Of a stretch of 64,000 nucleotides of DNA, positions 11,473 to 16,222 are shown piece by piece. Numbering within the stretch: the stretch's first letter is position 1; each line of letters begins with the position of its first letter. The stretch is taken from NCBI RefSeq assembly GCF_053078305.1, contig NZ_CP166879.1; one strand, written 5' to 3'. The notes beneath the pieces are model-generated. The model had not been told where the DNA came from and made no database searches. It saw nothing but the letters and a program-made list of their open reading frames with translations. The translations under genes were made by a program, and so were the position numbers.

Positions 11473-12789
11473 TTACCTGTTTTCCCATAATTTCAACATC
11501 GCTTTGTGCTCTTCCTTAAGCACAATATGCGAGCGTCTGGCTCGAATAAAGCTAATCGCTTCATCAACTGTTTTACAGTGTCCGTAACATAACAGCCATG
11601 CCGCCACTACCAGCGCACTGCGCGATAATCCCAATGCGCAATGGACCAGAACGCTGCCTTGCTCTTCGCGTAATGTTTCCAGCATCGCCACGGCCTGTCG
11701 GAGCTCCCCCTCTTCCGGAACCACCAGATCCAGCATCGGTACACAGAAATAGAGTCGATCTTTTGTCGCTCGTCCGCGAGGGAATTCAAAGGTGACATCC
11801 AGAACCGCATTCTGTGCCGGAATATGTCGTGGAAACGCCCCTAAATAAACACCAGCAGTCATTTTGCTCACCGGCTCCAGGCGACGACAAAACCAACGCA
11901 TAGATAGCCACATCCCGATGCGCCAGGGCAATGTCAGCCAGTAAACGGCGGGCGGGAGTTTCCCCTGACTATCTTTCCCTGTTGTTATCGCGCCAAGCCC
12001 ACCGTACCCACGGCCAATAATGAGTAGCGATAATACTGGCCAACATAACCAGACTGACCACCATAACTGAACCATCATCATTAGCTCCATCAACACAATG
12101 CACGCGCACGCGCCTACGACATATGGCTGTGCTATTTTGATTCGACGTTGATCAGGTTTCTGATAATTCCAACGACGGTCGACGGGTACCATCCAGTCAA
12201 TCAACATACCTACCGCCAGCCCTGTGATGACATCAATAAAATGATGCTGCCAGGTTGTCAGCGTCGAAATGGCGATGAGTAAAAACCATCCGCCGCAGAC
12301 TTTACGCCAACTCACAGCCAGATGCTGACGAAAGTGACGCCAAAGTAGCCAGCAGAGAATAATATGCAGCGAAGGAGACTGGTTATAAGGCAGATCAAAC
12401 AGTTCAAGTTGCGAAAATAGCCATCCTGTCACCCCACTCACTTCAGGACGGATAAAACTAAACTTCAGCGGGTAGAGAAAAAAACCGCAGCAGGCCATTA
12501 CCGTTGCCAGAATAAGCCGGTGGACAAGTCGGCGCTGTTCGAATGTCGAGCTACAAACGAACAGCGAAAATCCATATAAAAGATCCAGACTCCAGTAAGG
12601 AACAATAGTCCAGGGAAGAAAAGGGATCGCCGTTTCCCAGCCGAATACCTGACTGGGGATATCATGGCTGTTAAAGTCCTGAACCGCGGTGAACTGATTT
12701 AGAGATCCATAGGTGAAGAAGAAAAACGGGGCCAGCAACAATAACCAGCCAGCGCCTTGTAGCAATACGTTCCGGCGTTCAGTTATCAC
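11473..12789 (-). CDS. ynbD: Membrane phosphatase: multi-TM N-half plus C-terminal Cys-based (HCxxGxxRS) phosphatase domain
   Basis: P-loop [10 protein letters not shown] near the C-terminus; hydrophobic N-half. Start uncertain: GTG at 12789 used here; the ORF-track ATG at 12861 has no SD and a TTG at 12765 would give 430 aa. Confidence 0.75.
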
Positions 12790-14536
12790 GACGCACCGCC
12801 ATCGAAACCGTAAAAATGCCCCACTCATCAATCCGTTGAGTGCATTTATCAAATCCGGCATTACGCACGAGCGAATCCATCTCCCCTTGCGAACGCACGC
12901 GCATTACCCACGGTTTACCATCTTTATGACTGGTTAACACCCCGGCAATCAGCTCCAGTTGTGGGTGCCACGGCTGCCCGGTGTAGAGGAGAATGCCGCC
13001 CGGTTCGATGGCATTGGCAAGACCTGCGAGTGAGTTTTTTACCTGCTCATTTTCGGGAAAAAGCTCATACAGGCCAGAGACAATCGCCAGCGTAGGCCGC
13101 GGAGTTAACGCGCTGAGTTCCTCTGGGTTAAACGCATCGCCCTGTTCAAAACGCACCCGCCCAGACATTCCCCGTTGCGCAATCATCTCTTGCCCCTGTG
13201 CAACATTTAACTCGCTGTAATCACGTAACAAAATATCGCTTACGGCAGGCTCGTTTGCCAGCGCATCCAGTACATAGCGCCCATGCCCTGCGGCAATGTC
13301 AACCACGCGGACGGCTAAACCTTTGGCGTGGAGATCGGCAACGGCTTGTTTAATCAGTATTTGTAAATGGGTTTTGCGCTGGCGAATACCGCGCCAGCCA
13401 ACACTGTTCAGGTAGATTTTGTCGATTAAGCGCCCGAATGCGTTACTACCTTGCGGTTGATTTTGATAGACATAATCCAGCGAACTGCCTGAATCAAAGC
13501 CGGTGCTCATTCCGAGATGCAGGCCCGCAGAGTGCGTCCCGAACAATTTCATCGCTTTACGCATAAAGCGATACGCCAAATCAACCGGCGATAATGGCAC
13601 GGGTCCACCTGAAAGGAGCCGCCAGCGATCCGCTGATGGTCCAGTGCGGTCTTCATGCTGATAATCAAATTTTTGTGACTTGTTAGCATATAAACGACTA
13701 ATAAAGCTTTGCATTTTTTCAAATGCCTGCGCCCTGTTCTCTTCACCCAACGTGTCGTGATAAAAGCCAGGCAGCAGATGCAGCTCATTCAGAGGGCTAC
13801 GTAATCTCTGATAAAAATCAATCTGCGGTTGGCGATGCACCACATAGTCATCGCCTGATATCAGAAGTTGCGTGGGGAGCGTAATCGCCGCCGCATCGCT
13901 AACAATACGTTCAGACGTTTTATAAAGATCGAGCAAGATATTGACGGCAATCGCCCGTGTGATCAGCGGATCATTATTGAAACTCGCCACCCGTTGCCGA
14001 TCGTGGGTCAAATAGCGTCCTTTCACATAGGAATTAATAAAAAACAGACCACGCAGACGATGCCATAACGCCAGCGCAGGACGTGCCAGCGGCACATACA
14101 ATTTAACCTTAAAGGCCGGAGAAGCCAGCAGCAGCCCGCGAATTGCAGGCGCATAATCATGAACCCATGTGGCAACCAGTACTGCGCCGACGCTCTGCGC
14201 GATCACTACCACCTCTTCCAGCCCGACCTGGCTGTCGCTGGCAGCAAAACGGACAAACTCATCGACATCCCGCACTGAACGCGCAAGAGATGGGCTATAA
14301 CCACGGGGCCCCGAAGTTTGTCCATGCCCTCGGGCATCCCATGCATAAAAAGCAGTATCTGGCATCGCCAGTTCATCAACGATATGTTGTAGACGACCAG
14401 AATGTTCATGACCGCGATGAAATAAGACGATGACCTTTTTCGCCCCGGGCTGTAAAGCGGGCCAGTGCCGATAAAACAACGCTGTATTATCACTGGTGGT
14501 AAAAAAATGTTCCCCAGGGATGCGTGAATTTTCCAT
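12779..14536 (-). CDS. ynbC: Fusion protein: alpha/beta-hydrolase (lysophospholipase-like) N-domain plus SAM-dependent methyltransferase-like C-domain
   Basis: 585 aa; hydrolase elbow IAQSVGA and HRGHEHSGR; C-terminal [11 protein letters not shown] resembles methyltransferase motif I. Confidence 0.85.
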
Positions 14537-14551
14537 TTTCTCTATTTTCCT

Positions 14552-15448
14552 TCAGTAACAGCAGTAGCGAATAAAATAAAAAAATACCGGAGCGGTGAAA
14601 ATTAATGAGTCAATCCTGTCAAGGAGTCCGCCATGTCCTGGTAATAGTTTTCCGCTATCTTTAACACCCACATCTCGTTTGACGGCTGACATCACTACAT
14701 CGCCGCAAAAACCACTAATACCAATTAACAAACCCGCTAATAATGCCTGTAATGTATTTAGCGGTGTCAGCAACGGTCCAATAATCAGTGACGCAATCAT
14801 GGTGGTGATTACGCCCCCCACCAGACCTTCCAGCGTTTTTCCCGGGCTGACTTTGGGGACCACTTTTCTTCTGCCGCAGGATTTCCCCCATAAATACTGT
14901 GCAATATCGTTTGACTCTGTTAACGCCAAAAGAAATAACACCAGTAACGCCCCGCCCTGGGTATTTGTGGTTGGCAACATTAATAACCAGGCGGCATGAC
15001 TCAAGGCGAAAACGGTCATTATCCAGCCCCAAAAAATGGCGCTCACGGTATGCAGAAAACCGGAGGTATCACCTACTAAAACTCGCCAGGTGGTTAATAT
15101 CAGAAACCCAGCCAAAGGTATAAATAACAGAAACAGCTCAAAGCAATTAAAACCGATAAGCAAATAGTTAAGAGGAATAACCCAATATAACCAACGCGGA
15201 AAATGTACGGATATAAGCGTACAATATTCTTTCAATGCCAGAAAACTTATCAGCGCAAAAAACGTCAACGTCATCCAGCGTGGACCTGAAATCACCAGTG
15301 AAAAACAAATGACGATACCCCACCAGGTACGAATACGTAATGTAACTTCATCCTCTTTTCTCTCCGGTAACCGCCATACCCGAAAACGGTTTATCAGCGT
15401 TGCTAAAATTAACAACGCGAAAAGTGTTGCCAGAGATTTTTCCAGCAT
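14552..15448 (-). CDS. ynbB: CdsA-like CDP-diglyceride synthetase paralogue
   Basis: 298 aa, multi-TM; C-terminal [27 protein letters not shown] matches the phosphatidate cytidylyltransferase signature. Confidence 0.85.
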   Translation of the reverse strand: [298 protein letters not shown]

Positions 15449-16053
15449 TATCTTTCAGCACTCATCAGGAGCACACTCCGACAACGATTAATCGCAGTCC
15501 AGATAAGCAGAATTGAAGCAATGCCCCATAAAAGATTATTCCATTGCATCCACTGTGGATAAATGGCAACGGCCAGCCCCCACAACCCAAATATTAACGC
15601 ACGATCGCTTTTGCCGAATGGACCGGCATAACTGCGAATACCGTTAATCGTCTGCGCGAGTAAACCGCAAAACTCAGTCAATATGGTGAAAAATAACATG
15701 AGTATTACGAGTGATGCGTTACTTTCTGGTAAAAATAAAAACGGTAAATAGAGCGCAATATCGGAAATAACATCGCCAGTTTCATTCAAAATCGCCCCCA
15801 GACGTGTTTGCAGATTGCACTCACGCGCCAACATGCCATCCAGCGCATTGAGTGCCATACGGATAAAAAGCACGATGGGCAATAGCAAAAAGAGGATGGG
15901 TTGTGCGACCAACATCAACAGCAATCCGGTAATAAGAGAAAGCGCCAGTGCAGCAAGAGTGATGTGATTCGCTGTAACATGGTGCTTATAAAGCCAAAAC
16001 ATCGTCGGCCTTAACAGCGACTGAAAGAGCGGTTTTATCTGGTAGAGCGTCAT
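15448..16053 (-). CDS. ynbA: CDP-alcohol phosphatidyltransferase family protein
   Basis: 201 aa from ATG at 16051-16053 (SD AAGGA); motif DGMLARECNLQTRLGAILNETGDVISD; stop overlaps the ynbB ATG (TAATG). Confidence 0.85.
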   Translation of the reverse strand: MTLYQIKPLFQSLLRPTMFWLYKHHVTANHITLAALALSLITGLLLMLVAQPILFLLLPIVLFIRMALNALDGMLARECNLQTRLGAILNETGDVISDIALYLPFLFLPESNASLVILMLFFTILTEFCGLLAQTINGIRSYAGPFGKSDRALIFGLWGLAVAIYPQWMQWNNLLWGIASILLIWTAINRCRSVLLMSAER

Positions 16054-16222
16054 TATCAATCCTTGATAATTCGGTTTGCGCTATGGTGCATCAATTCCCC
16101 TGACGGAGATATCGCAACACGACGCTTCATTAAAAATTCAGAATATATCAAGGTATTGGGGACTCACTGTCAGGAATGATTATCCCAATAAATCAAGTGG
16201 TTAAAAATTATTACGCTGTTAT

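What the first reader, a model, noticed from the sequence alone, without database searches (positions are those of the whole stretch)
11473..16059. ynbA-ynbB-ynbC-ynbD: a translationally coupled operon that looks like a complete alternative CDP-lipid head-group pathway
Four minus-strand genes are packed with overlapping or near-abutting boundaries: the ynbA stop overlaps the ynbB ATG (TAATG at 15446-15450), ynbB and ynbC are 15 nt apart, and ynbC and ynbD overlap. The products carry (1) a CDP-alcohol phosphatidyltransferase motif in YnbA (DGMLAR...G...D), (2) the CdsA phosphatidate cytidylyltransferase signature in YnbB ([27 protein letters not shown]), (3) an alpha/beta-hydrolase fused to a SAM-methyltransferase-like domain in YnbC, and (4) a polytopic membrane protein ending in a Cys-based phosphatase P-loop ([10 protein letters not shown]) in YnbD. 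Read together this is activation (CDP-DAG), head-group transfer, dephosphorylation and modification, parallel to the housekeeping CdsA/PgsA/Pgp route. From memory, YnbB has been linked to biosynthesis of the glycolipid MPIase; the specific substrates of YnbA, YnbC and YnbD are, to my knowledge, not established.
Basis: partly seen in the sequence, partly recalled or inferred. Interest (0 to 1): 0.6.

Follow-up and report, generated by a model that had tools for sequence, protein, structure and literature searches.

The report
Reduced E. coli ynbABCD lipid operon
This is the annotated but largely uncharacterised E. coli ynbABCD operon, which comparison with other bacteria shows to be a cut-down copy of a widespread six-gene lipid pathway that probably builds a special phospholipid and passes its head group to something on the outer side of the inner membrane.

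Summary
The four genes are real, tightly packed and belong to the stated families. The window is E. coli, and RefSeq already names all four domain sets.

- The ynbC/ynbD overlap is 11 nt (GTG start) or absent (TTG start). It is not the 83 nt implied by the longest ORF.
- YnbA lacks two of the four canonical aspartates. D1 and D3 are Asn, invariant across the family.
- The YnbD membrane part is not a generic polytopic domain. It is a PAP2-superfamily domain closest in fold to sphingomyelin synthase-related protein and Aur1 IPC synthase, and its active site is predicted to face the periplasm. The Cys-phosphatase domain is cytoplasmic.

New context:
- In at least 80 species of alpha-, beta- and gammaproteobacteria the cluster has six genes. 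The extra two are a PlsC-type acyltransferase (X) and a small 2-TM protein (G5).
- Natural YnbA-YnbC and YnbA-X fusions exist.
- E. coli has lost X and G5. About 12% of complete E. coli genomes lack the operon entirely and about 9% carry it only in part.

Best reading is a self-contained CDP-DAG-dependent pathway for synthesis and transfer of a lipid head group. Substrate and product are unknown. "Complete" and "parallel to CdsA/PgsA/Pgp" are only partly right.

The parts
15448..16053 (-). ynbA: a 201-aa divergent CDP-alcohol phosphatidyltransferase-family membrane protein. Its motif is NxxDGxxARE..GxxxNExxDxxxD.
   Evidence: RefSeq CDS. Pfam PF01066 at E 3e-8. The best NCBIfam hits are archaetidylinositol-phosphate synthase (70.6 bits, cutoff 180) and PIP synthase. 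The best PDB hit is mycobacterial PIPS 6h53. Asn at D1 and D3 is invariant in all 82 syntenic orthologs aligned over the motif and in 128 of 129 family representatives.
15446..15450 (-). TAATG junction where the ynbA stop overlaps the ynbB start by one base.
   Evidence: Read directly from the sequence. Orthologs show a 4-nt ATGA-type overlap.
14552..15448 (-). ynbB: a 298-aa CdsA paralogue (CDP-diacylglycerol synthase).
   Evidence: Pfam CTP_transf_1 at E 2e-70. NCBIfam CdsA equivalog scores 111 bits against a cutoff of 385, matching only the C-terminal half. In vitro CDP-DAG synthesis and the MPIase effect are reported in PMC6362211 and PMC7018664.
13739..14443 (-). ynbC N-terminal domain: alpha/beta hydrolase of the monoacylglycerol-lipase/lysophospholipase type (Hydrolase_4). 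The predicted triad is Ser115, an Asp in SGxD, and His260.
   Evidence: Pfam at E 4e-66. PDB hits are M. tuberculosis and human monoglyceride lipases at E 3e-15. The catalytic motifs are conserved in 83 orthologs.
12791..13714 (-). ynbC C-terminal domain: class I SAM-dependent methyltransferase (Methyltransf_20). The whole ynbC CDS spans 12779-14536.
11983..12789 (-). ynbD N-terminal 8-TM domain: PAP2-superfamily, SMS/Aur1-like. The H134/H175/D178 site is predicted to face the periplasm. The start codon is either the GTG at 12789 or the TTG at 12765.
11479..11850 (-). ynbD C-terminal domain: cytoplasmic dual-specificity (Cys-based) phosphatase. Key residues are H375, C376, R382 and the general acid D346 (430-aa numbering). 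The CDS ends at 11473.
   Evidence: Pfam DSPc at E 1.4e-26. PDB hits are DUSPs, an archaeal PTP and PTPMT1. CxxGxSRS and LDL are conserved in 73 full-length orthologs.
16054..16222 (-). ynbA upstream intergenic region. It should hold the BglJ-RcsB-activated promoter mapped in K-12.
   Evidence: PMC3950696 maps the binding-site centre 65-68 bp upstream of the TSS. It was not re-mapped here. The simple sigma-70 scan found nothing above chance. GC content is 42-45% over ynbA and ynbB.

Best explanation
ynbABCD is the E. coli remnant of a conserved, self-contained six-gene proteobacterial operon: ynbA, ynbB, a PlsC-type acyltransferase X, ynbC, ynbD and a small 2-TM protein G5. I propose that this operon makes a dedicated glycerophospholipid on the cytoplasmic face of the inner membrane and then uses it as a head-group donor on the periplasmic face.

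Proposed steps, each marked shown or inferred:
1. YnbB converts phosphatidate plus CTP to CDP-diacylglycerol. This is shown in vitro in the literature.
2. YnbA, a PIP/AIP-synthase-like CDP-alcohol transferase with an unusual Asn-substituted metal site, transfers the phosphatidyl group to a phosphorylated alcohol of unknown identity. This is inferred.
3. The cytoplasmic DSP domain of YnbD removes the terminal phosphate. This is inferred and is analogous to the PIP and PGP phosphatases.
4. The lysophospholipase-like and methyltransferase domains of YnbC remodel or methylate the lipid. Where present, X reacylates it. This is inferred. YnbC must act in the cytoplasm, because natural YnbA-YnbC fusions exist and it uses SAM.
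5. The periplasm-facing SMS/Aur1-like domain of YnbD attacks the phosphodiester. It transfers the phospho-head group to an acceptor, or to water, and releases diacylglycerol. This is inferred from fold, motifs and topology.

In E. coli the operon lacks X and G5. It depends on the BglJ-RcsB activator for expression, is under relaxed purifying selection and is missing or damaged in about a fifth of strains. Its output there may therefore be reduced or altered.
For: - Family assignments hold for all domains.
- Synteny of A, C and D with B, X and G5 is seen in 80 loci of alpha-, beta- and gammaproteobacteria. The architectures are ACD5XB 27, ACDXB 21, ABXCD5 11 and others.
- No other gene is conserved next to the cluster.
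- Rosetta-stone fusions YnbA-YnbC (807 aa) and YnbA-X (436 aa) exist.
- Start/stop overlaps occur at nearly every junction in many species.
- All catalytic motifs are conserved.
- YnbC is 57-78% identical across classes.
- X carries HX4D and FPEGTR and is closest to AGPAT and the Aas acyltransferase domain.
- The YnbD N-domain fold is closest to SMSr and Aur1, ahead of true phosphatases, and it lacks the phosphate-clamping C1 and C3 basic residues.
- The topology places the two YnbD active sites on opposite faces of the membrane.
- A functional precedent exists in the Bacteroides inositol cluster: PIPS, PIP phosphatase and an AUR1-like synthase (PMC9246714).
- Published negatives fit. YnbD does not complement PGP or C55-PP phosphatase mutants (PMC7413402). 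YnbB does not restore bulk phospholipid (PMC6362211 and PMC7018664).
- Co-regulation: PynbA is activated by BglJ-RcsB (PMC3950696), and ynbA, ynbC and ynbD co-vary in a transcriptome study.
- No internal terminator or promoter appears above chance.
Against: - No product lipid has ever been reported.
- The head-group alcohol and the periplasmic acceptor are unknown.
- No head-group-synthesis gene (for example MIPS) is linked to the cluster.
- YnbA lacks two canonical metal-binding Asp residues, so its chemistry may differ from a standard phosphatidyl transfer.
- The DSP P-loop (CALGxSRS) looks like protein DUSPs. It lacks the basic residues of PTEN and PTPMT1 (knowledge of those families is from memory).
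- The SMS/Aur1 similarity is at fold level only, 11-13% identity, and the topology is predicted, not measured.
- E. coli lacks X and G5 and often loses the operon. The E. coli version may not carry out the full scheme.
Confidence: 0.5

Rival explanations
1. The operon is an MPIase pathway. Its native job is to make the DAG-pyrophosphate-linked glycolipid MPIase.
- YnbB, with or without YnbA, would couple CDP-DAG to GlcNAc-1-phosphate to give GlcNAc-PP-DAG.
- The less negatively charged Asn-substituted site of YnbA would suit a phosphate nucleophile.
- The PAP2-like domain of YnbD would recycle DAG-pyrophosphate.
For: - YnbB overproduction raises MPIase, and it restores MPIase but not phospholipids when CdsA is depleted (PMC6362211 and PMC7018664).
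- cdsA and ynbB are both induced in the cold (PMC11413397).
- ynbA is translationally coupled to ynbB and has an atypical active site.
- ynbA has not been tested. It is absent from the MPIase papers read here.
Against: - A ynbB knockout leaves MPIase unchanged, and CdsA alone suffices.
- MPIase is reported to be essential, yet 658 of 5426 complete E. coli genomes have no trace of the operon.
- The cluster is conserved in Pseudomonas, Variovorax, Cupriavidus, Bradyrhizobium and others. These lie outside the Enterobacterales, to which ECA-type sugars are restricted (from memory).
- No glycosyltransferase is linked to the cluster.
- The YnbD N-domain lacks the basic residues used by pyrophosphate and monoester phosphatases.
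Confidence: 0.12
2. In E. coli the operon is an evolutionary remnant with no pathway output.
- It has lost the acyltransferase and the small membrane protein.
- It needs the BglJ-RcsB activator for expression.
- It is being lost strain by strain.
- Any effect, such as YnbB acting on MPIase, would be a side activity of an individual enzyme.
For: - X is absent from all 5426 E. coli chromosomes, and G5 is absent altogether.
- 12% of genomes have no operon. A further roughly 9% carry only part of it, through internal deletions, ynbA'-'ynbC fusion pseudogenes and similar damage. Separate examples of an IS1 insertion in ynbC and a frameshifted ynbD were also seen.
- dN/dS is 0.12-0.47, against 0.03-0.06 for the neighbouring azoR.
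- GC content is low and expression depends on BglJ-RcsB.
- No phenotype is reported for ynbB or ynbD deletions under standard conditions.
Against: - dN/dS is still well below 1 for all four genes.
- 79% of genomes across phylogroups keep at least 80% of the operon in one piece at 95-100% identity.
- Every catalytic motif is intact in this window.
- A specific activator site is maintained.
- Klebsiella (ABCD5) and Rahnella (ABCD) also keep X-less versions, so X may be dispensable.
Confidence: 0.25
3. The operon is a private synthesis-and-remodelling route for a conventional anionic lipid. The product would be a phosphatidylglycerol- or cardiolipin-type lipid. The arrangement would mirror mitochondrial cardiolipin synthesis: CDS, a CDP-alcohol transferase, the DSP-type PGP phosphatase PTPMT1, the lipase Cld1 and the LPLAT-family tafazzin.
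For: - The domain sets correspond one to one. These are Cds, a CDP-OH transferase, a DSP phosphatase with PTPMT1 among the PDB hits (E 2e-4), a lipase and an LPLAT.
- The mitochondrial pathway itself is recalled from established knowledge.
Against: - Overexpressed YnbD does not rescue a pgpA pgpB pgpC mutant (PMC7413402).
- YnbA scores far better against PIP and AIP synthases than against PgsA: 70.6 and 41.8 bits versus 28 bits.
- This reading leaves the methyltransferase and the SMS/Aur1-like domain unexplained.
- YnbB does not support bulk phospholipid synthesis.
Confidence: 0.08

Closest known systems
E. coli housekeeping CdsA - PgsA - PgpA/B/C route to phosphatidylglycerol
   Same: The order of chemistry matches. 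A CTP_transf_1 CDP-DAG synthase is followed by a CDP-alcohol phosphatidyltransferase-family enzyme and then a phosphatase.
   Different: - YnbB matches CdsA only in its C-terminal half and falls far below the equivalog cutoff.
- YnbA has Asn at D1 and D3 and is closer to PIP/AIP synthases than to PgsA.
- The phosphatase is a Cys-based DSP, not a PgpA, PAP2 or HAD enzyme.
- Published complementation fails for both YnbB and YnbD.
- The ynb cluster has additional lipase-methyltransferase, SMS-like, LPLAT and small-protein components.
Bacteroides thetaiotaomicron inositol-lipid cluster BT_1522-1526 (MIPS, PIP synthase, PIP phosphatase, AUR1-like PI-dihydroceramide synthase; PMC9246714)
   Same: It shares the logic of the model proposed here. 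A CDP-alcohol transferase makes a phosphorylated head-group lipid, a dedicated phosphatase trims it, and an Aur1-type PAP2-superfamily enzyme passes the phospho-head group to a second lipid.
   Different: - No MIPS or other head-group-synthesis gene is linked to ynb.
- The phosphatase is DSP-type rather than PgpA-type.
- The Aur1-like and phosphatase modules are fused in one protein.
- E. coli makes no sphingolipids (from memory), so the acceptor cannot be ceramide.
- BT_1523 keeps the canonical DX2DGX2AR...GX3DX3D motif, whereas YnbA does not.
Eukaryotic sphingomyelin synthase family (SMSr, 8ijr) and yeast Aur1-Kei1 IPC synthase (9ivc)
   Different: - Sequence identity is only 11-13%.
- YnbD has two extra TM helices and a fused cytoplasmic phosphatase.
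- Donor and acceptor are unknown.
- Whether the small co-encoded G5 protein plays a Kei1-like subunit role is pure speculation, and E. coli lacks G5.
MPIase (GlcNAc-PP-DAG-based glycolipid) biosynthesis by CdsA/YnbB
   Same: YnbB is experimentally connected to it (PMC6362211).
   Different: The link rests on overexpression and CdsA depletion. The operon is dispensable and often absent in E. coli. It is also conserved in bacteria well outside the Enterobacterales.

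Membership tests
CDP-alcohol phosphatidyltransferase (Pfam PF01066 / PROSITE PS00379) | Significant match to the family profile | tested here: met
   PF01066 at E 3.1e-8 over residues 27-175. 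PDB hits are PIPS, AF2299, CPT1 and PgsA.
CDP-alcohol phosphatidyltransferase (Pfam PF01066 / PROSITE PS00379) | Signature D1xxD2GxxAR...GxxxD3xxxD4 with four Asp residues | tested here: not met
   YnbA reads NALDGMLAR-x8-GAILN-ETGD, so D1 and D3 are Asn. This is invariant in all 82 syntenic orthologs aligned over the motif and in 128 of 129 family representatives. YnbA is therefore a divergent subfamily, not a canonical member.
CDP-alcohol phosphatidyltransferase (Pfam PF01066 / PROSITE PS00379) | CMP-releasing transfer from a CDP-activated donor to an alcohol | not testable with these tools
   This needs an enzyme assay. No published assay of YnbA was found.
PIP / archaetidylinositol-phosphate synthase equivalogs (NCBIfam NF045883, NF040950) | Score above the curated cutoff | tested here: not met
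   70.6 bits against a cutoff of 180, and 41.8 bits against 170. These are the closest relatives, but YnbA is not an equivalog.
Phosphatidate cytidylyltransferase CdsA (PF01148; NCBIfam NF008635) | Profile match and the C-terminal signature S-x-[LIVMF]-K-R-x4-K-D-x-[GSA]-x2-[LIF]-[PG]-x-H-G-G-[LIVMF]-x-D-R-[LIVMFT]-D | tested here: met
   PF01148 at E 2.4e-70. The sequence [27 protein letters not shown] fits the pattern, which is recalled from memory.
Phosphatidate cytidylyltransferase CdsA (PF01148; NCBIfam NF008635) | Equivalence to CdsA (curated cutoff; complementation of cdsA) | tested here: not met
   111 bits against a cutoff of 385, with only residues 160-291 aligned. The literature reports no complementation of a cdsA deletion (PMC6362211).
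Alpha/beta hydrolase, Hydrolase_4 (monoacylglycerol lipase / lysophospholipase type) | Profile match plus a nucleophile elbow Ser, an acid and a His | tested here: met
   PF12146 at E 3.9e-66. MGL structures match at E 3e-15. [AG]QSVG, SGxD and HDTLGE are conserved in 83 orthologs.
Class I SAM-dependent methyltransferase (Methyltransf_20) | Profile match, Rossmann-like fold, and motif I with an acidic post-I residue | tested here: met
Dual-specificity / Cys-based phosphatase (PF00782) | HCx5R(S/T) P-loop and an upstream general-acid Asp | tested here: met
   DSPc at E 1.4e-26. H375, C376 and R382 are present. CALGxSRS and LDL are conserved in 73 orthologs.
PAP2 lipid phosphate phosphatase (PgpB / LPP type) | Motifs C1 KxxxxxxRP, C2 PSGH and C3 SRxxxxxHxxxD | tested here: not met
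   For C1, the K is not conserved and the R is only partly conserved. C2 is PSxH. In C3 the R is replaced by V or I. Pfam PAP2 scores only E 0.026. The literature reports no complementation of C55-PP or PGP phosphatase mutants.
Sphingomyelin synthase / IPC synthase branch of the PAP2 superfamily | His-His-Asp motifs without the C1 and C3 basic residues, a six-TM core fold, and an exoplasmic active site | tested here: met
Sphingomyelin synthase / IPC synthase branch of the PAP2 superfamily | Phospho-head-group transfer from a glycerophospholipid to a lipid acceptor with release of DAG | not testable with these tools
   This needs biochemistry. The acceptor is unknown.
Single transcription unit (operon) | Co-transcription of ynbA-D | tested here: inconclusive
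   Junctions are 1-nt overlap, a 15-nt gap, and an 11-nt overlap or 13-nt gap. No terminator or promoter appears above chance. A promoter is mapped upstream of ynbA. ynbA, ynbC and ynbD co-vary in one transcriptome. No RNA data could be analysed here.

The most novel reading that the evidence does not exclude
The ynb cluster is a previously unrecognised proteobacterial counterpart of the eukaryotic and Bacteroides system in which a donor phospholipid is made and its head group is then transferred.
- A dedicated, possibly methylated, phospholipid would be built in the inner leaflet. The enzymes would be YnbB, an Asn-variant CDP-alcohol transferase, a membrane-tethered DSP lipid phosphatase and a lipase-methyltransferase.
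- A periplasm-facing SMS/Aur1-like enzyme would then use this lipid to decorate an envelope acceptor with a new phospho-head group.
- This would amount to a new lipid species and a new class of envelope modification in hundreds of species.
- E. coli would carry a cut-down version.
Probability: 0.25. Interest if true: 0.8.

Novelty: new variant of a known kind. Interest (0 to 1): 0.5.

Why it matters
E. coli phospholipid synthesis is regarded as essentially solved, yet this operon encodes six catalytic domains of lipid metabolism with no known product. Placing it in a six-gene cluster conserved across at least 80 species and three proteobacterial classes turns four orphan y-genes into one testable pathway.

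- It predicts specific intermediates that single point mutants should accumulate.
- It suggests that YnbB is conserved because it belongs to this cluster rather than because it backs up MPIase synthesis.
- It flags two unusual enzymes. One is a CDP-alcohol transferase family that has replaced two metal-binding aspartates. The other is a bacterial SMS/Aur1-like enzyme fused to a cytoplasmic Cys-phosphatase.

If a product exists, it would be a new bacterial lipid or envelope modification, under control of BglJ-RcsB, the RcsB branch of which belongs to the Rcs envelope-stress system.

Tried and rejected
- **Anti-phage defence.** PADLOC gave no hit for any of the six proteins.
- **Longest-ORF start for ynbD (ATG 12861, 462 aa).** Rejected because the ATG at the position corresponding to E. 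coli 12861 is absent in the related Citrobacter loci and most species start at an ATGA overlap.
- **Linked head-group-synthesis gene in the flanks** (MIPS, sugar-phosphate enzymes). All-against-all clustering of flank ORFs in 82 loci found nothing conserved beyond the six genes. ORF calling in high-GC loci was noisy.
- **Literature.**
  - 'ynbABCD' gave 0 papers.
  - 'PF12147/Methyltransf_20' gave 0 papers.
  - A combination of the domain names gave 0 papers.
  - Most raw 'ynbA-D' hits are yeast media and strain names.
- **Sequence search of the methyltransferase domain against PDB.** Nothing scored below E 0.1.
- **G5.** No NCBIfam or Pfam family matches.
- **Internal promoters and terminators.** None were found above shuffled expectation.
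- **NCBIfam PRK12361 lead.** The model is 546 positions long, and YnbD matches only positions 3-232. I recall that the remainder is a DAG-kinase-like domain, and longer (about 600 aa) YnbD relatives exist. I could not fetch those sequences to verify this.

Full report
**Identity and observation.** The window is an E. coli chromosome. Positions 11000-16500 are 100% identical to NZ_CP149565, and RefSeq annotates azoR, ynbD, ynbC, ynbB, ynbA and ydbD there.

The four minus-strand ORFs exist as described.
- The TAATG junction of ynbA and ynbB lies at 15450-15446.
- The ynbB-ynbC spacer is 15 nt. Both were read directly from the sequence.
- The annotated ynbA start is the ATG at 16053, not the TTG at 16059.

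Whether ynbC and ynbD overlap depends on the start codon.
- The record identical to the window uses the TTG at 12765. That gives 430 aa and a 13-nt gap.
- The K-12 derivative, CB7286 and PK8241 records, the largest E. coli YnbD protein cluster (438 aa), and the gene calls for S. bongori and Klebsiella, use the GTG at 12789. That gives 438 aa and an 11-nt overlap.
- The 462-aa ORF that starts at the ATG at 12861 is not supported. Residue conservation begins at positions 7-15 of the 430-aa form. In most species ynbD starts at an ATGA, TAATG or ATGnnTGA overlap with the ynbC stop.

Tight packing is therefore confirmed, and translational coupling of ynbC with ynbD is the ancestral state.

**Family assignments.** All assignments hold.
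- YnbA matches PF01066 at E 3e-8.
- YnbB matches PF01148 at E 2e-70.
- YnbC carries Hydrolase_4 (E 4e-66) plus Methyltransf_20 (E 3e-152).
- YnbD carries DSPc (E 1e-26) plus a weak PAP2_3 match (E 1e-3).

RefSeq product names already state these domains, so this part of the finding is not new.

**Three refinements.**

1. YnbA is not a canonical CDP-alcohol transferase.
   - Aligned to mycobacterial PIP synthase, its motif is N-xx-D-G-xx-A-R-E-x7-G-xxx-N-E-xx-D-xxx-D.
   - The first and third of the four signature aspartates are asparagine.
   - This holds in all 82 syntenic orthologs aligned over the motif and in 128 of 129 family representatives clustered at 50% identity.
   - Its closest curated families are archaetidylinositol-phosphate and PIP synthases, not PgsA, and all scores fall below the cutoffs.
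2. The membrane domain of YnbD keeps the PAP2 C2 and C3 His/His/Asp residues (PSxH; T-x-Q-H-H-x-x-D).
   - It lacks the conserved C1 Lys/Arg and the C3 Arg.
   - Both rank ahead of the phosphatases LpxE and PgpB.
   - Some UniProt records already auto-name E. coli YnbD fragments 'inositol phosphorylceramide synthase'.
3. Model helices combined with the positive-inside rule give an 8-TM protein with both termini in the cytoplasm.
   - All Lys/Arg-rich loops and the DSP domain lie on one side of the membrane.
   - The His/His/Asp site lies on the other side.
   - I infer that the two catalytic centres of YnbD work on opposite faces of the inner membrane.

**Comparative genomics.** Full-length YnbC homologs, 57-78% identical, occur in at least 517 species-level genomes.
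- In the 80 loci fetched, ynbA, ynbC and ynbD are almost always adjacent, and ynbB is usually present.
- Two further genes recur. X is a roughly 210-aa PlsC/LPLAT acyltransferase carrying HX4D and FPEGTR. G5 is a 135-150-aa two-TM protein with no known family.
- The dominant orders are A-C-D-G5-X-B in Pseudomonas, Variovorax, Cupriavidus and Bradyrhizobium, and A-B-X-C-D-G5 in Citrobacter, Hafnia and Salmonella bongori.
- In S. bongori and Citrobacter the six genes sit at the same chromosomal site as in E. coli, next to azoR-hrpA. Klebsiella huaxiensis has A-B-C-D-G5.
- X-like DNA is absent from all 5426 E. coli chromosomes, and G5 DNA is absent entirely. The E. coli operon is therefore a reduced derivative.
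- No other gene is conserved beside the cluster.
- Natural fusion proteins YnbA-YnbC (807 aa) and YnbA-X (436 aa) exist.
- Every catalytic motif is conserved across orthologs.

**Status in E. coli.**
- Of 5426 complete genomes, 4283 hold at least 80% of the operon in one place, 485 hold only parts, and 658 hold nothing.
- Examples of loss or damage:
  - azoR abutting pdxI, with ydbD and ynbABCD gone;
  - a ynbA'-'ynbC deletion fusion;
  - IS1 inserted in ynbC;
  - a frameshifted ynbD in UPEC 536.
- Pairwise dN/dS among four strains is 0.12-0.25 for ynbA, ynbC and ynbD. It is 0.19-0.47 for ynbB and 0.03-0.06 for azoR. Selection is purifying but relaxed.
- The ynbA-ynbB-ydbD stretch is AT-rich, at 39-45% GC.

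**Literature.**
- YnbB makes CDP-DAG in vitro. It raises or restores MPIase but cannot supply bulk phospholipid, and its deletion has no effect on MPIase (PMC6362211 and PMC7018664).
- ynbB is induced in the cold (PMC11413397).
- Overexpressed YnbD rescues neither C55-PP phosphatase nor PGP phosphatase mutants, and no function has been assigned to it (PMC7413402).
- I found no study of YnbA or YnbC, none of the operon as a unit, and none of the six-gene cluster.

**Mechanism.** The best-supported reading is a self-contained pathway with these steps.
1. [X makes a private phosphatidate pool. This step is absent in E. coli.]
2. YnbB makes CDP-DAG. This is shown.
3. YnbA transfers the phosphatidyl group to a phosphorylated alcohol. 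This is inferred from its PIPS/AIPS affinity.
4. The membrane-tethered cytoplasmic DSP domain removes the terminal phosphate. This is inferred.
5. YnbC deacylates and/or methylates the lipid. This is inferred, and YnbC is the most conserved protein of the set.
6. The periplasm-facing SMS/Aur1-like domain transfers the phospho-head group to an acceptor, or to water, and releases DAG. This is inferred.

The closest functional precedent is the Bacteroides inositol-lipid cluster: MIPS, PIPS, PIP phosphatase and an AUR1-like synthase (PMC9246714). The head group, the methyl acceptor and the final acceptor cannot be deduced with these tools.

**Rivals.**
- *An MPIase-dedicated pathway.* This is weakened by several points.
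  - The operon is dispensable and often absent in E. coli.
  - It is distributed well beyond the Enterobacterales.
  - No glycosyltransferase is linked to it.
  - It remains worth testing, because ynbA has never been examined.
- *A non-functional remnant in E. coli.* This is compatible with the losses and the relaxed selection. It is contradicted by dN/dS well below 1 and by intact motifs.
- *A private PG/cardiolipin-type route.* This is contradicted by the failed pgp complementation and leaves two domains unexplained.

**Verdict.** It is neither complete in E. coli nor a simple parallel of CdsA/PgsA/Pgp, and it contains an unforeseen head-group-transfer module.

The gene set and its domain labels are already known. 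The six-gene context, the Asn-variant transferase family, the two-faced architecture of YnbD and the reduced, variable state in E. coli did not turn up in the literature I could search.

Noticed in passing
L092 (E. coli plasmid pFHI_NMBU_11_02, NZ_CP045714.1 about 27600-31750): A colicin-M plasmid carries a second, decayed ynb-like cluster. It has a frameshifted ynbA, then ynbB, the LPLAT gene X, ynbC, and a 73-aa stub where ynbD should be. X-like DNA is found on 2 plasmids and on no E. coli chromosome, so the cluster can travel on mobile DNA.
   Followed up: partly
L090:1-2103 and L005:2597-5838; window about 25938-29090: In S. bongori, ydbH-ynbE-ydbL lie directly upstream of ynbA on the same strand, and Citrobacter L005 shows the same layout (YdbH- and YdbL-sized ORFs, not all checked). 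From memory, ydbH-ynbE-ydbL encode an AsmA-like phospholipid-transport system. In this window they are about 10 kb away, separated by ydbD, pdxI and a ydbA-like autotransporter. The fea/tynA/paa block of K-12 is not present between ydbL and ydbA.
   Followed up: no
L002:4233-6251 (Vibrio fluvialis): The gene between ynbA and ynbC is a 130-aa deletion fusion. Its N-terminus is that of YnbB and its C-terminus is that of the acyltransferase X. A resolvase gene lies just upstream of the cluster.
   Followed up: partly
proteins P0197 and P0191: Natural single-polypeptide fusions exist: YnbA-YnbC (807 aa) and YnbA-acyltransferase X (436 aa). Both keep the Asn-variant motif.
   Followed up: yes
window 19673-25567 (-): A single uninterrupted 1964-aa ORF. 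RefSeq annotates it as two features: an autotransporter beta-barrel CDS and a 'BigA/YdbA N-terminal' pseudogene.
   Followed up: no
window 16223-18535 (-), ydbD: ydbD ('DUF2773 domain-containing bactofilin') is the most AT-rich stretch nearby, at 39-45% GC. It is missing together with ynbABCD in some strains (L085) and missing on its own in UPEC 536 (L089).
   Followed up: no
(AFDB50 hits to the YnbD N-domain): Relatives of YnbD of about 520-625 aa occur in Acinetobacter, Herbaspirillum and Bordetella. NCBIfam PRK12361 (546 positions) matches YnbD only over its first 232 positions. Both points suggest a further C-terminal domain in some lineages, possibly a lipid kinase, but this was not verified.
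   Followed up: no
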